A stretch of 64,000 bases of DNA from the human T2T-CHM13v2.0 reference genome, Homo sapiens (GCF_009914755.1 NC_060947.1); one strand, 5' to 3'. Positions 24,201 to 35,597 are shown, counted from the stretch's first letter. Program-made: numbers and translations. The notes: generated by a model from the sequence alone, not told the origin.

Positions 24201-27200
24201 TGAAGGCAGAAATAAAGATGTTCTTTGAAACCAACGAGAACAAAGACACAGCATACCAGAATCTCTGGGACACATTCAAAGCAGTGTGTAGGGGGAAATT
24301 TATAGCGCTAAATGCCCACAAGAGAAAGCAGGAAAGATCTAAAATTGACACTCTAACATCACAATTAAAAGAACTAGAGAAGCAAGAGTAAACACATTCA
24401 AAAGCTAGCAGAAGGCAAGAAATAACTAAGATCAGAGCAGAACTGAAGGAGATAGAGACACAAAAAACCCTTCAAAAAATCAATGAATCCAGGAGGTGGT
24501 TTTTTGAAAGGATCAACAAAATTGATAGACTGCTAGCAAGATTAATAAAGAAGAAAAGAGAGAAGAATCAAATAGACGCAATAAAAAATGATAAAGGGGA
24601 TATCACCACCGATCCCACAGAAATACAAACTACCATCAGAGAATACTACAAACACCTCTATGCGAATAAACTAGAAAATCTAGAAGAAATGGATAAATTC
24701 CTCGACACATACACCCTCCCAAGACTAAACCAGGAAGAAGTTGAATCTCTGAATAGACCAATAACAGGCTCTGAAATTGAGGCAACAATTAATAGCTTAC
24801 CAACCAAAAAAGGTCCAGGACCAGATGGATTCACAGCCGAATTCTACCAGAGGTACAAGAAGGAGCTGGTACCATTCCTTCTGAAACTATTCCAATTGAT
24901 AGAAGAAAAGGGAATCCTCCCTAACTCATTTTATGAGGACAGCATCATCCTGATACCAAAGCCGGGCAGAGACACAACAAAAAAAGAGAATTCTAGACCA
25001 ATATCCCTGATGAACATCGATGGAAAAATCCTCAATAAAATACTGGCAAACCAAATCCAGCAGCACATCAAAAAGCTTATCCACCATGATCAAGTGGGTT
25101 TCATCCCTGGGATGCAAGGCTGGTTCAGCACACGCAAATCAATAAACGTAATCCAGCATATAAACAGAACCAACAACAAAAACCACATGATTATCTCAAT
25201 AGATGCAGAAAAGGCCTTTGACAAAATTCAACAACCCTTCATGCTAAAAACTCTCAATAAATTAGATATTGATGGGACATATTTCAAAATAATAACAGCT
25301 ATCTATGACAAACCCACAGCCAATATCATACCGAATGGGCAAAAACTGGAAGCATTCCCTTTGAAAACTGGCACAAGACAGGGATGCCCTCTCTCACCAC
25401 TCCTATTCAACATAGTGTTGGAAGTTCTGGCCAGGGCAATCAGGCAGGAGAAGGAAATAAGGGGTATTCAATTAGGAAAAGACGAAGTCAAATTGTCCCT
25501 GTTTGCAGACGACATGATTGTATATCTAGAAAACCCCATTGTCTCAGCCCAAAATCTCCTTAAGCTGATAAGCAACTTCAGCAAATTCTCAGGATACAAA
25601 ATCAATGTACAAAAATCACAAGCATTCTTATACACCAACAACAGACAAACAGAGAGCCAAATCATGAGTGAACTCCCATTCACAATTGCTTCAAAGAGAA
25701 TAAAATACCTAGGAATCGAACTTACAAGGGATGTGAAGGACCTCTTCAAGGAGAACTACAAACCACTGCTCAAGGAAATAAAAGCGGATACAAACAAATG
25801 GAAGAACATTCCATGCTCATGGATAGGAAGAATCAATATTGTGAAAATGGCCATACTGCCCAAGGTAATTTACAGATTCAATGCCATCCCCATCAAGCTA
25901 CCAATGACTTTCTTCACACAATTGGAAAAAACTACTTTAAAGTTCATATGGAACCAAAAAAGAGCCCACATCGCCAAGTCAATCCTAAGCCAAAAGAACA
26001 AAGCTGGAGGCATCACACTACCTGACTTCAAACTATACTACAAGGCTACAGTAACCAAAACAGCATAGTACTGGTACCAAAACAGAGATATAGATCAATG
26101 GAACAGAACAGAGCCCTCAGAAATAATGCCGCATATCTACAACTATCTGGTCTTTGACAAACCTGAGAAAAACAAGCAATGGGGAAAGGATTCCCTATTT
26201 AATAAATGGTGCTGGGAAAACTGACTAGCCTTATGTAGAAAGCTGAAACTGGATCCCTTCCTTACACCTTATACAAAAATCAATTCAAGATGGATTAAAG
26301 ACTTAAATGTTAGACCTAAAACCATAAAACCCTAGAAGAAAACCTAGGCAATACCATTCAGGACATAGGCATGGGCAAGGACTTCATGTCTAAAACACCA
26401 AAAGCAATGGCAACAAAAGACAAAATTGACAAATGGGATCTAATCAAACTAAAGAGCTTCTGTACAGCAAAAGAAACTACCATCAGAGTGAACAGGCAAC
26501 CTACAAAATGGGAGAAAATTTTCGCAACCTACTCATCTGACAAAGGGCTAATATCCAGAATCTACAATGAACTTAAACAAATTTACAAGAAAAAAACAAC
26601 CCCATCAAAAAGTGGGCAAAGGACATGAACAGACACTTCTCAAAAGAAGACATTTATGCAGCCAAAAAACACATGAAAAAATGCTCATCATCACTGGCCA
26701 TCAGAGAAATGCAAATCAAAACCACAATGAGATACCATCTCACACAAGTTAGAATGGCAGTCATTAAAAAGTCAGGAAACAACAAGTGCTGGAGAGAATG
26801 TGGGGAAGTAGGAACACTTTTACACTGTTGGTGGGACTGTAAACTAGTTCAACCATTGTGGAAGTCAGTGTGGCGACTCCTCAGGGATCTAGAACTAGAA
26901 ATACCATTTGACCCAGCCATCCCATTACTGAGTATATACCCAAAGGACTATAAATCATGCTGCTATAAAGACACATGCACACATATGTTTATTGCGGCAC
27001 TATTCACAATAGCAAAGACTTGGAACCAACCCAAATGTCCAACAATGATAGACTGGATTAAGAAAATGTGGCACATATACACCATGGAATACTATGCAGC
27101 CATAAAAAATGATGAGTTCATGTCCTTTGTAGGGACATGGATGAAATTGTAAATCATCATTCTCAGTAAACTATCGCAAGAACAAAAAACAAACACCGCA

Positions 27201-27465
27201 TATTCTCACTCATAGGTGGGAATTGAACAATGAGATCACATGGACACAGGAAGGGGAACATCACACTCTGGGGACTGTTGTGGGGTGGGGGGAGGGGGGA
27301 GGGATAGCTTTGGGAGATATACCTAATGCTAGATGACGAGTTAGTGGGTGCAGTGCACCAGCATGGCACATGTATACATATGTAACTAACCTGCACAATG
27401 TGCACATGTACCCTAAAACTTAAAGTATAATAATAAAAGAAAAAAAAGAAAAAAAAGAAAAAAAA
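21288..27465 (+). mobile_element. Full-length inactive L1PA (5' part L1PA4/5-like, 3' end L1PA2-like)
   Basis: 5'UTR from 21288; ORF1 22327-23342 with stops at 22504 and 22714 plus a frameshift; ORF2 23406 to about 27226 in fragments (EN MTGSNSHITILTLNVNGLN, RT LFADD); 3'UTR and A-tail. Confidence 0.97.
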
Positions 27466-27549
27466 TTAAATATGGTACTGAAGCAAATAAACCACTAATA
27501 GTTGAAAAAAATAAATAAATAAATTGTTGATGTATTGAAAAAAAAAAAA

Positions 27550-33042: not shown

Positions 33043-33556
33043 CTTTCATAATTGAGATTTTATTGGATGTGGATCAGTAAGACACTTAAACTTGTACACA
33101 ATTCTTAACATACATACCGAAAATCTAAAAAGCCATGTATTGTAATTCTTTTTTAAAGTTATTCCAGCGACTTTCCAGCTTAAAATTTGGAAGCAAATTT
33201 TCCTTAAGAGGCTATCAATATCTTCACATGTTGATAAGCTGTTACATACATTTCACCAATTCACAACTGAATAGCATATACACTACATATTCAAATTTTT
33301 AATCTTTCACAGCATAACAAAGTTATTAGGAAAACAGGACTACCACAACCACAGATCTTACAGAGTGCACACAATTCTGACAGGGAGAAGCCAGGATCAA
33401 GGAGTGGTTTTCTTTAGAAAACAATTCTACTAAAAAACAGCAAGGGAATAGAAGTAATTTAAAATGTTCAAGACATTAAATGCAGGACTGACTTCATATT
33501 TCCATTTAATATGCTTTGTTTTATAGGATATAAAAACTAACCCCTCATCTATGGAA
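33043..33556 (-). pseudogene. HMGN1-like 3'UTR fragment carried by the adjacent L1
   Basis: Reverse complement TTCCATAGATGAGGGGTTAGTTTTTATATCCTATAA ... CCAATAAAATCTCAATTATGAAA matches my recall of the distal HMGN1 3'UTR; poly-T at 33033-33042. Confidence 0.75.
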
Positions 33557-35597
33557 TTTTTTTTTTATACTTTAAGTTTTAGGGTACATGTGCACATTGT
33601 GCAGGTTAGTTACATATGTATACATGTGCCATGCTGGTGCACTGCACCCACTAACTCGTCATCTAGTATTAGGTATATCTCCAAAAGCTATCCCTCCCCC
33701 CTCCCCCCACCCCACAACAGTCCCCAGAGTGTGATGTTCCCCTTCCTGTGTCCATGTGATCTCATTGTTCAATTCCCACCTATGAGTGAGAATATGCGGT
33801 GTTTGGTTTTTTGTTTTTGCGATAGTTTACTGAGAATGATGTTTTCCAATTTCATCCATGTCCCTACAAAGGACATGAACTCATCATTTTTTATGGCTGC
33901 ATAGTATTCCATGGTGTATATGTGCCACATTTTCTTAATCCAGTCTATCATTGTTGGACATTTGGGTTGGTTCCAAGTCTTTGCTATTGTGAATAGTGCC
34001 GCAATAAACATATGTGTGCATGTGTCTTTATAGCAGCATGATTTATAGTCATTTGGGTATATACCCAGTAATGGGATGGCTGGGTCAAATGGTATTTCCA
34101 GTTCTAGATCCCTGAGGAGTCGCCACACTGACTTCCACAATGGTTGAACTAGTTTACAGTCCCACCAACAGTGTAAAAGTGTTCCTACTTCCCCACATTC
34201 TCTCCAGCACCTGTTGTTTCCTGACTTTTTAATGATTGCCATTCTAACTGGTGTGAGATGGTATCTCATTGTGGTTTTGATTTGCATTTCTCTGATGGCC
34301 AGTGATGATGAGCATTTTTTCATGTGTTTTTTGGCTGCATAAATGTCTTCTTTTGAGAAGTGTCTGTTCATGTCCTTCGCCCACTTTTTGATGGGGTTGT
34401 TTGTTTTTTTCTTGTAAATTTGTTGGAGCTCATTGTAGATTCTGGATATTAGCCCTTTGTCAGATGAGTAGGTTGTGAAAATTTTCTCCCATTTTGTAGG
34501 TTGCCTGTTCACTCTGATGGTGGTTTCTTTTGCTGTGCAGAAGCTCTTTAGTTTAATTAGATCCCATTTGTCAATTTTGTCTTTTGTTGCCATTGCTTTT
34601 GGTGTTTTAGACATCAAGTCCTTGCCCATGCCTATGTCCTGAATGGTATTGCCTAGGTTTTCTTCTAGGGTTTTATGGTTTTAGGTCTAACATTTAAGTC
34701 TTTAATCCATCTTGAATTGATTTTTGTATAAGGTGTAAGGAAGGGATCCAGTTTCAGCTTTCTACATATGGCTAGCCAGTTTTCCCAGCACCATTTATTA
34801 AATAGGGAATCCTTTCCCCATTGCTTGTTTTTCTCAGGTTTGTCAAAGATCAGATAGTTGCAGATATGCGGCGTTATTTCTGAGGGCTCTGTTCTGTTCC
34901 ATTGATCTATATCTCTGTTTTGGTACCAGTACTATGCTGTTTTGGTTACTGTAGCCTTGTAGTATAGTTTGAAGTCAGGTAGTGTGATGCCTCCAGCTTT
35001 GTTCTTTTGGCTTAGTAACATAGTGTTGGAAGTTCTGGCCAGGGCAATTAGGCAGGAGAAGGAAATAAAGGGTATTCAATTAGGAAAAGAGGAAGTCAAA
35101 TTGTCCCTGTTTGCAGATGACATGATTGTATATCTAGAAAACCCCATTGTCTCAGCCCAAAATCTCCTTAAGCTGATAAGCAACTTCAGCAAAGTCTCAG
35201 GATACAAAATCAATGTACAAAAATCACAAGCATTCTTATACATCAGCAACAGACAAACAGAGAGCCAAATCATGAGTGAACTCCCATTCACAATTGCTTC
35301 AAAGAGAATAAAATACCTAGGAATCCAACTTACAAGGGACGTGAAGGACCTCTTCAAGGAGAACTACAAACCACTGCTCAATGAAATAAAAGAGGATACA
35401 AACAAATGGAAGAACATTCCATGCTCATGGGTAGGAAGAATCAATATCGTGAAAATGGCCATACTGCCCAAGGTAATTTACAGATTCAATGCCATCCCCA
35501 TCAAGCTACCAATGCCTTTCTTCACAGAATTGGAAAAAACTACTTTAAAGTTCATATGGAACCATAAAAGAGCCCGCATCGCCAAGCCAATCCTAAG
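33557..35597 (-). mobile_element. 5'-inverted (twin-primed) truncated L1PA2-like element
   Basis: Minus-strand 3' part 33557-35015, plus-strand ORF2 part 35017-35597; both pieces end at L1 ctaag; TSD taagtttatcttttt at 33023-33037 and 35594-35608. Confidence 0.95.

What the first reader, a model, noticed from the sequence alone, without database searches (positions are those of the whole stretch)
25985..35015. Inverted L1 pair shares private inactivating mutations: gene-converting arms around a 6-kb spacer
The 3' 1.45 kb of the + L1 and the - L1 at 33557-35015 share non-consensus changes: ORF2 TGG>TAG (26066-68 / 34932-34); a 1-bp deletion in ccataaaaccctag (26326-29 / 34671-74); gagaatgtggggaagtagg giving RECGEVG instead of RGCGEIG; gcgactcc; gatagctt. 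The third young L1 (63.5-63.8 kb) has the normal state at the first two sites. A shared stop plus frameshift is unlikely to come from an active source, so sequence was exchanged after insertion. Both copies have old-type ggcaatacc yet young-type 3'UTRs, suggesting exchange in both directions. The arms behave like a mini-palindrome and could mediate recurrent inversion between NXF4 and ARMCX5.
Basis: partly seen in the sequence, partly recalled or inferred. Interest (0 to 1): 0.76.

Follow-up and report, generated by a model that had tools for sequence, protein, structure and literature searches.

The report
Old gene conversion between neighbouring L1s
Two separately inserted L1 retrotransposon copies lying 6 kb apart in opposite orientation on the human X chromosome share a set of disabling mutations found together nowhere else in the genome, most likely because one copied about 1.4 kb from the other long ago; this is a tidy but ordinary example of a known process.

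Summary
The sequence facts hold. Arms 25985-27438 (+) and 33557-35015 (-) are 97.8% identical. They share the in-frame stop, the 1-bp deletion and the other listed changes.

"Private" is only partly right:
- The stop's 30-mer occurs 175 times genome-wide and the deletion's 26-mer 72 times.
- One unrelated L1 (chr13p, with a chr21p duplicate) carries both lesions.
- 26351A (ggcaatacc) and 26308T are ancestral states.
- The three-change 27-mer, and so the full haplotype, occurs only in these two arms.

The two L1s are separate insertions: a full-length + copy (about 21288-27477) and a twin-primed - copy (33548-35597). The 581-bp inverted part of the - copy shares no exclusive variant with the + copy.

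Best reading: one old episode of non-allelic gene conversion, probably from the older + copy into the - copy, followed by about 1% independent decay per arm.

Not supported:
- Ongoing homogenisation. The 29 differences are evenly spread.
- Exchange in both directions. Dispersed copies show the same mix of old and young states.
- Exceptional similarity. The arms are reciprocal best hits by only 4-7 bits.

Inversion of the spacer could not be tested. This is a new example of a known kind, of low to moderate interest.

The parts
21288..27477 (+). Full-length + L1 (early young-type 3'UTR; the label L1PA2/3 is recalled). The start at 23260 in the mask table is only a masking gap. The ORF2 frame is broken into at least 5 pieces.
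   Evidence: 5'UTR-like start at about 21288. L1 sequence is continuous across 23140-23340. Tail at 27439-27477. Open-frame pieces 23391-23648, 23786-24391, 24392-26068, 26320-26628 and 26577-27152.
25985..27438 (+). + arm: the 3' 1454 bp of the + L1 (end of ORF2 plus 3'UTR). Probable donor of the shared lesions.
   Evidence: Shared derived states at 26067, 26325, 26797, 26804, 26808, 26877, 26983 and 27309.
26066..26068 (+). In-frame stop shared with 34932-34934.
   Evidence: 0 of 29 panel copies have it. 175 exact 30-mers occur genome-wide, in copies 85-97% like the arm.
26326..26329 (+). A-run one base shorter than usual (frameshift), shared with 34671-34674.
   Evidence: 1 of 29 panel copies. 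72 exact 26-mers genome-wide.
26791..26817 (+). 27-mer with three clustered changes (26797, 26804, 26808), shared with 34179-34205. Unique to the two arms in the genome.
   Evidence: 2 exact matches in 3.1 Gb. With at most 1 mismatch, 5 more copies appear, each lacking one of the three changes.
27478..33547 (.). 6.07-kb spacer, mostly unmasked. The flanks next to the two tails are not homologous.
   Evidence: The mask table in the finding lists only 31042-31360 inside it.
33548..35015 (-). Short A tail (33548-33556) and sense 3' segment of the - L1 (33557-35015), which is the - arm. Probable acceptor.
35017..35597 (+). 5'-inverted segment of the same - L1 insertion (twin priming). It equals + L1 25409-25989 in direct orientation at 96.9% and carries no exclusive variant shared with the + L1.
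   Evidence: 18 mismatches in 581. L1 coordinates overlap the arm's start by 5 bp. 0 exclusive shared variants against 27 panel copies.

Best explanation
Two L1 copies of nearly the same evolutionary stage inserted independently, 6 kb apart and in opposite orientation.

Proposed order of events:
1. A full-length + copy inserted first and began to decay. In its last 1.45 kb it picked up a stop codon, a 1-bp deletion, three clustered substitutions and a few more changes.
2. A shorter, twin-primed - copy then inserted.
3. At or soon after that time, a break in the - copy's 3' segment was repaired using the + copy as template. This is non-allelic gene conversion between inverted repeats on one chromatid or on sisters. 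It overwrote most or all of the 1.45-kb homology with the decayed + sequence. It stopped where inverted homology ends, at the twin-priming junction and at the tail.
4. Since then both arms have decayed independently by about 1% each, with no further homogenisation.

Shown: separate insertions; a haplotype unique to the pair; no sharing in the adjoining segment; evenly spread later differences.
Inferred: the repair mechanism, the + to - direction, the single early episode, and the order of insertion.
For: 1. The three-change 27-mer occurs only in the two arms in the 3.1-Gb assembly. The 5 copies within one mismatch each lack one of the three changes. The four of them compared site by site (L063, L064, L066, L067) lack the stop, the deletion and 26877C; L065 was compared only by blastn. 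Two random insertions falling within 10 kb of each other has a chance of roughly 6e-6 (my arithmetic).

2. Eight shared derived states lie in 1454 bp, polarised against 10 nearest relatives of the - arm and 14 older copies. Two of them break ORF2. A source carrying them could not have copied itself autonomously.

3. The copies are separate insertions. Their tails and flanks differ. The - copy has a 581-bp inverted 5' part abutting the sense part with a 5-bp overlap.

4. In that 581 bp there are 0 exclusive shared variants, where 2.8-4.8 are expected from the arm's density. P(0) is 0.06 to 0.008; Fisher's test gives 0.08 to 0.012. The + copy carries 12 non-majority states there, 8 of them found in 0 of 27 relatives. 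The - copy carries 6 (4 in 0 of 27). This fits an older + copy.

5. At site 25907 the - copy has the younger state (3 of 4 young-type copies, 0 of 20 others) and the + copy the older state.

6. After the shared set, private changes are balanced: 17 events in the + arm and 12 in the - arm. The - arm's private rate (12 in 1459) matches that of its own 581-bp segment (6 in 581; P=0.61).

7. Background, from passages read: gene conversion between neighbouring Alu elements is raised within 10 kb and on sex chromosomes (PMC6598467, citing Aleshin and Zhi 2010).
Against: - The statistical support from the 581-bp segment is modest (P 0.06 to 0.008, depending on which shared sites are counted). The - arm's total divergence (24 in 1459) is not significantly above that of its own segment (6 in 581; P=0.21).
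- Overall identity gives no signal. + vs - scores 2512 bits, + vs L002 (chr20) 2505, and - vs L143/L144 2508.
- Both ORF2 lesions recur elsewhere, and one unrelated locus has both.
- 26804G with 26808G also occurs in 3 other copies, so those two may be source-lineage variants.
- The 4-bp AAAC difference and 26463 separate the arms inside the supposed tract. They need either later mutation or a patchy tract.
- No ape orthologue or second human haplotype could be examined, so no before-and-after state was seen.
- The panels hold only 40 scored candidates out of 6138-7234 per search.
Confidence: 0.72

Rival explanations
1. Common defective source. Both copies are progeny of one L1 that already carried the stop, the frameshift and the other shared variants, mobilised in trans by other L1s' proteins. 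In one variant, the full-length + copy itself was transcribed and its RNA was reinserted 6 kb away as the - copy.
For: The two copies are at nearly the same evolutionary stage: same young 3'UTR states, same ancestral states at 26308, 26351, 27000 and 27259. The + copy is full length with a 5'UTR. 26804G/26808G occur in a few other copies.
Against: - No third copy with the haplotype exists in the assembly.
- Landing within 10 kb by chance is about 6e-6, and L1 is not known to hop locally (my knowledge).
- There are 0 shared exclusive variants in the 581-bp segment of the same insertion, against 2.8-4.8 expected.
- The state at 25907 differs between the copies.
- An ORF2-defective source is strongly disfavoured by cis preference (established L1 biology, recalled).
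Confidence: 0.1
2. Parallel mutation. The shared states arose independently in both arms at mutable sites.
For: The stop recurs in 175 copies and the 1-bp deletion in 72. One unrelated locus has both. 26983A is a CpG decay seen in 5 of 14 older copies.
Against: Eight shared derived states include three clustered changes whose 27-mer is unique to the pair. Each state has a panel frequency of 0-3 of 29, so the joint chance is negligible.
Confidence: 0.01
3. Repeated, ongoing and two-way conversion. The arms behave as a small palindrome in concerted evolution.
For: Some discordant sites sit between shared ones (26463 and the AAAC indel lie between 26325 and 26797; 26897 lies after 26877). This could mean several short tracts.
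Against: - Arm identity is only 97.8%.
- The 29 differences fit a uniform spread (longest identical run 204 bp, P=0.33; gap variance P=0.12).
- The AAAC indel is a common recurrent frameshifting slip (1647 vs 6837 copies), so it is not a safe lineage marker.
- The mix of old and young states is seen in dispersed copies.
- The + arm is not less diverged than the rest of the + copy once panel bias is allowed for.
Confidence: 0.1
4. DNA-level inverted duplication or an assembly artefact produced the second arm.
For: None beyond the similarity itself.
Against: - Homology stops exactly at L1 landmarks: the twin-priming junction and the tail.
- The flanks are unrelated and the tails differ.
- The 29 differences exclude a collapse or a recent copy.
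Confidence: 0.02

Closest known systems
Non-allelic gene conversion between neighbouring interspersed repeats (best documented for Alu: Kass 1995, Roy 2000, Aleshin and Zhi 2010, as cited in PMC6598467, passages read)
   Same: Two separately inserted copies of one repeat family less than 10 kb apart on a sex chromosome share variants that their relatives lack. The transfer is limited to the stretch of homology.
   Different: Here the repeats are L1 3' ends, the tract is long (up to 1.45 kb), and the orientation is inverted. The evidence is a haplotype unique to the pair rather than an orthologous before-and-after comparison.
Inverted L1 pairs that flank balanced polymorphic inversions (Porubsky et al. 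preprint 10.1101/2021.12.20.472354, passages read: 22 L1 pairs among 132 NAHR inversions, median identity 97.2%; HsInv0341 with L1PA3 repeats in PMC3961182, passages read)
   Same: An inverted L1 pair with 97.8% identity, 1.45-kb homology and a short spacer is the same kind of substrate.
   Different: No second orientation has been seen for this locus. I found no paper naming it. A search for inversion with NXF4/ARMCX5 listed 8 papers, judged from the listing only. The nearest catalogued case, HsInv0393 (PMC3961182, passages read), lies at ARMCX6 about 1 Mb away.
Large X and Y palindromes with arm-to-arm gene conversion
   Same: Inverted arms around a spacer, with sequence transfer between the arms.
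   Different: Those arms are duplicated genomic segments kept above 99.9% identical by continuing conversion (recalled). These arms are independent retrotransposon insertions, 97.8% identical, with no sign of continuing exchange.
Twin-primed (5'-inverted) L1 insertions (Ostertag and Kazazian 2001, as described in the Porubsky preprint: 26% of polymorphic L1s)
   Same: The - copy has a sense 3' part and an inverted 5' part whose L1 coordinates abut with a 5-bp overlap.
   Different: No target-site duplication could be recognised.

Membership tests
Non-allelic gene conversion between dispersed repeats | Derived variants shared by the two copies and absent from their closest relatives | tested here: met
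   8 shared derived states. The 27-mer is unique to the pair genome-wide.
Non-allelic gene conversion between dispersed repeats | The copies are independent insertions, not products of one duplication or one source | tested here: met
   Different tails and flanks, and twin priming in one copy. 25907 differs and there are no shared exclusives in the 581-bp segment. Statistical support is modest.
Non-allelic gene conversion between dispersed repeats | Orthologous locus in an outgroup shows the unconverted state | not testable with these tools
   Only the window's own assembly is held. The 27-mer has no match in genome contigs or viral contigs.
Non-allelic gene conversion between dispersed repeats | Definable tract boundaries, with incongruent relationships inside and outside the tract | tested here: inconclusive
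   Shared derived sites span 26067-27309. The discordant sites inside (26463, the AAAC indel, 26897) may be later mutations. The outside comparison rests on only 581 bp.
Palindrome in concerted evolution | Near-identical arms maintained by continuing exchange | tested here: not met
   97.8% identity. The 29 differences are spread as expected by chance.
Inverted-repeat (NAHR) mediated inversion polymorphism | Inverted repeats long and similar enough to recombine | tested here: met
   1.45 kb at 97.8%, 6.1 kb apart. This is within the range of the L1 pairs reported in 10.1101/2021.12.20.472354 and of the 96-97% threshold discussed in PMC4344489 (passages read).
Inverted-repeat (NAHR) mediated inversion polymorphism | Both orientations of the spacer observed, or crossed target-site duplications | tested here: inconclusive
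   No target-site duplication of 7 nt or more was found, either direct or crossed. No second haplotype was available.
Twin-primed L1 insertion | Inverted 5' segment whose L1 coordinates abut the start of the sense 3' segment, which ends in an A tail | tested here: met
   35017-35597 equals + L1 25409-25989 and 35015-33557 equals 25985-27438, a 5-bp overlap. The A tail is at 33548-33556.
Twin-primed L1 insertion | Target-site duplication around the whole insertion | tested here: not met
   None of 7 nt or more. The flanks are A-rich and ambiguous.
L1PA2 / L1PA3 subfamily | Match to curated subfamily consensus and diagnostic positions | not tested
   No repeat library is available here. 'Young' and 'old' states were defined only from panels of genomic copies. 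The subfamily names are recalled labels.

The most novel reading that the evidence does not exclude
The evidence does not exclude two bolder readings.
(a) The overwrite of the - arm happened during, or immediately after, its own integration. The - arm's post-exchange divergence equals that of its unconverted 581-bp segment. This would mean a nascent L1 insertion can be repaired against a nearby older L1, a possible route by which new insertions are born already broken.
(b) The pair still flips the 6-kb spacer in human or ape populations as a small recurrent inversion upstream of ARMCX5.
Probability: 0.1. Interest if true: 0.5.

Novelty: new member of a known kind. Interest (0 to 1): 0.3.

Why it matters
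It is a clean, datable case in which a younger L1 copy took on the accumulated damage of an older neighbour. It shows that shared "diagnostic" mutations in nearby L1s can mislead source-lineage and age inference.

It also marks a 1.45-kb, 97.8% inverted pair upstream of ARMCX5 as a candidate substrate for a small inversion.

Neither point changes current understanding. Gene conversion between nearby repeats and inversions mediated by L1 pairs are both established.

Tried and rejected
1. "Rejuvenated + arm". Strictly private + variants number 22 in 1500 bp outside the arm and 8 in 1454 bp inside it. But the panel had been chosen by similarity to the arm. Against 14 copies chosen only by the stop 30-mer, the outside/inside distance ratio of the + copy (0.916) is typical. 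Its 51 vs 36 differences from the majority match the ratios of panel copies. The excess sits in one patch, 24769-25175. Rejected.

2. "Chimeric + copy". It has old states at 24949, 25051, 25169, 25454 and 25907 and young states at 27236 and 27398. Of 18 copies nearest to the + copy's non-arm part, one has old states at all three of 24949, 25051 and 25169 together with 27236T, and one has old states at two of the three together with both young 3'UTR states. A stepwise lineage explains the pattern. Rejected.

3. The AAAC indel as a lineage marker. All 29 copies of the first panel lack it, but that is selection. It shifts the ORF2 frame and is common (1647 vs 6837 exact matches). I read it as recurrent slippage.

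4. Target-site duplications as a test for a past inversion. None was found, direct or crossed.

5. A gapped genome pattern joining the stop and the deletion was not accepted by the tool. Co-occurrence was checked instead in two ways. First, by coordinates for chr1-9: 0 of 34 deletion copies lie within 300 bp of one of the 100 listed stop places. Second, by 61-bp fetches for chr10-Y: of 36 copies, 2 have the stop, 22 a sense codon and 12 were unreadable or not homologous. Copies whose stop context is mutated would be missed on chr1-9.

6. The 27-mer has no match in genome contigs or viral contigs.

8. Literature. A search for inversion with NXF4/ARMCX5 returned 8 papers, which I judged from the listing alone. 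The supplement text of PMC13721702 has no coordinate beginning 10257 or 10258. The published Cell version of the Porubsky study is not held and bioRxiv supplements are closed, so its inversion call set was not seen and may bear on the inversion claim.

9. The genome searches score only 40 of 6138-7234 candidates. The - arm itself was not among the 40 scored for the + arm. "Best hit" statements therefore cover scored copies only.

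
Full report
**What is there**

The window holds an inverted repeat. Its arms are 25985-27438 (+) and 33557-35015 (-). The repeat finder reports three abutting arm pairs at 98%. blastn gives 97.807% over 1459 columns, with 27 mismatches and 2 gap openings. A pairwise alignment shows 29 separate differences within the arms.

The + arm is the last 1454 bp of an L1 that is full length, not a 4.2-kb fragment:
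- L1 sequence runs without interruption across the supposed start at 23260.
- A 5'UTR-like start lies at about 21288.
- The ORF2 frame is cut into at least five open pieces, one of which ends at the stop at 26066-68.

The - arm is the sense 3' part of a second, twin-primed L1:
- Next to it, 35017-35597 is L1 sequence in the opposite orientation. It equals + L1 25409-25989 at 96.9%, with 18 mismatches in 581.
- The L1 coordinates of the two parts overlap by 5 bp.

The two copies have different tails and unrelated flanks. They are therefore separate retrotransposition events, not a DNA duplication.

**The observation**

The third L1 (63424-64000) has the usual state at the first two sites.

How private each change is was measured on the window's own 3.1-Gb assembly:
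- The stop's 30-mer has 175 exact matches. The 30 sampled copies are 85-97% like the arm, so they are of many ages.
- The 1-bp deletion's 26-mer has 72 matches.
- In a panel of 29 dispersed copies most like the + arm, the counts were: stop 0, deletion 1, 26797A 1, 26804G 0, 26808G 1, 26877C 3, 27309T 5.
- The 27-mer with the three clustered changes has exactly two matches, the two arms.
- Allowing one mismatch adds five copies. Each lacks one of the three changes. The four of them compared site by site (L063, L064, L066, L067) lack the stop, the deletion and 26877C; L065 was compared only by blastn.

I then checked whether the stop and the deletion co-occur elsewhere:
- Of the 34 other deletion copies on chr1-9, none lies within 300 bp of a listed stop place.
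- Of the 36 on chr10-Y, 2 carry the stop, 22 a sense codon, and 12 were unreadable or not homologous.
- The two are a chr13p copy and a chr21p copy that are identical over the 61 nt fetched.
- The chr13p copy is 95.2-95.5% like the arms. It has the old 3'UTR states and shares none of the other variants.

So the pair "stop plus frameshift" can arise by coincidence. The full haplotype is unique to the two arms.

**Which shared states are derived**

Against the ten dispersed copies most like the - arm, 12 columns are shared departures. Another 20 columns (17 events) are private to the + arm and 12 are private to the - arm.

Fourteen older copies, chosen only by the stop 30-mer, show that four of the 12 are retained ancestral states:
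- 26308T in 11 of 14
- 26351A in 12 of 14
- 27000C in 12 of 14
- 27259C in 13 of 14

That leaves eight shared derived states: the stop, the deletion, 26797A, 26804G, 26808G, 26877C, 26983A (a CpG decay) and 27309T.

**Common source or later exchange**

Four points argue against a shared source:
- It would have had a broken ORF2.
- It would have left only these two descendants in the assembly.
- It would have placed them within 7.4 kb of each other. By chance that is about 6e-6 for a 10-kb neighbourhood (my arithmetic).
- The 581-bp inverted part belongs to the same insertion as the - arm, but it cannot pair with the + copy in the same register as the arm. There the two copies share no exclusive variant. 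The only two shared non-majority states occur in 11 and 9 of 27 relatives and are the normal state of the young-type copies.

From the arm's density, 2.8-4.8 shared variants were expected in that segment. P(0) is 0.06 to 0.008 and Fisher's test gives 0.08 to 0.012.

In that segment the + copy has 12 non-majority states and the - copy 6. At 25907 the - copy has the younger state. Both fit an older + copy.

The - arm's private rate (12 in 1459) equals that of its own 581-bp segment (6 in 581; P=0.61). So the exchange dates to about the time the - copy arrived.

These statistics are modest. The - arm's total divergence is not significantly above its segment's (P=0.21). The case rests mainly on the unique, adjacent, ORF2-breaking haplotype.

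**What is not supported**

1. Exceptional similarity. With one scoring scheme, + vs - gives 2512 bits, + vs a chr20 copy 2505, and - vs chr5 and chr2 copies 2508. Thirty-nine dispersed copies match the - arm at 97-98%.

2. Continuing homogenisation. The 29 differences fit a uniform spread, with a longest identical run of 204 bp (P=0.33) and gap variance P=0.12.

3. Exchange in both directions.
Stepwise intermediates exist.
   - My own lead, that the + arm is less decayed than the rest of the + copy, did not survive controls for panel choice.
   - The 4-bp AAAC difference between the arms looked like a lineage marker. But it shifts the frame and occurs in 1647 copies against 6837. I read it as recurrent slippage.

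4. Inversion. No target-site duplication, direct or crossed, could be found, and no second haplotype was available.

**Comparison with what is known**

From passages read:
- Gene conversion between neighbouring Alus is raised within 10 kb and on sex chromosomes (PMC6598467).
- Among 132 sequence-resolved NAHR inversions, 22 are flanked by inverted L1 pairs with a median identity of 97.2%. Twin priming is seen in 26% of polymorphic L1s (10.1101/2021.12.20.472354).
- An L1PA3 pair mediates HsInv0341. The nearest catalogued X inversion, HsInv0393, is at ARMCX6, not here (PMC3961182).
- LINE pairs of about 96-97% identity are enriched at rearrangement breakpoints (PMC4344489).
- T2T-CHM13 holds 15,505 inverted LINE pairs of at least 200 bp and 80% identity (PMC11794170).
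- Closer and longer inverted repeats recombine more often, especially on the unpaired X (PMC7263195).

A search for this locus with inversion listed 8 papers, which I judged from the listing only. The Porubsky call set could not be seen (bioRxiv supplements are closed).

The subfamily names L1PA2 and L1PA3, the rule of cis preference, and the need for the ORF2 C-terminal part are recalled, not tested.

**Verdict**

The most likely history is one old non-allelic gene conversion, probably from the older + copy into the newly inserted - copy, followed by independent decay. It is a new example of a known kind and of low to moderate interest.

Noticed in passing
window 21288-27477: The + L1 is full length, with a 5'UTR-like start near 21288. 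The 23260 start in the mask table is only a gap in soft-masking. Its ORF2 frame is in at least five pieces.
   Followed up: partly
window 24769-25175: This patch of the + L1 is much more diverged than the rest. It has 27 departures from the panel majority in about 400 bp, and 15-18 differences per 251 bp against each of 18 relatives. Substitution types are mixed. The cause is unknown; it could be chance or an older conversion patch.
   Followed up: partly
window 26593 / 34403-34406: A 4-bp AAAC unit in ORF2 is missing in the + arm and present in the - arm. Genome-wide, the short form has 1647 exact matches and the long form 6837. The short form shifts the frame, so it looks like a recurrent slippage hotspot in L1 copies.
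   Followed up: partly
G000 C13:12956700-12958200 (L142) and C21:9971497: L1 copies on the short arms of chr13 and chr21 both carry the same stop and the same 1-bp deletion. They are identical over the 61 nt fetched, so they are probably copies of one segmental duplication. The chr13 copy was compared in full and is unrelated to the window's haplotype.
   Followed up: partly
window 63061-63254 (-) and 63424-64000 (+): A 194-bp L1 3' end in minus orientation lies 170 bp before a plus-oriented L1 that runs off the window end. Both are about 97% like the + arm. Whether this is another inverted L1 pair or one rearranged copy was not examined.
   Followed up: no
window 36671-36998 and 44508-45832: Older L1 fragments. 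36671-36998 is 70% complementary to 26689-27016. 44508-45832 is 84% identical to the + arm.
   Followed up: no
output: The whole-genome DNA search scored 40 of 7234 candidates and did not list the - arm among the hits to the + arm, although the - arm is 97.8% identical. Top-hit lists from this tool are therefore incomplete for high-copy repeats.
   Followed up: yes
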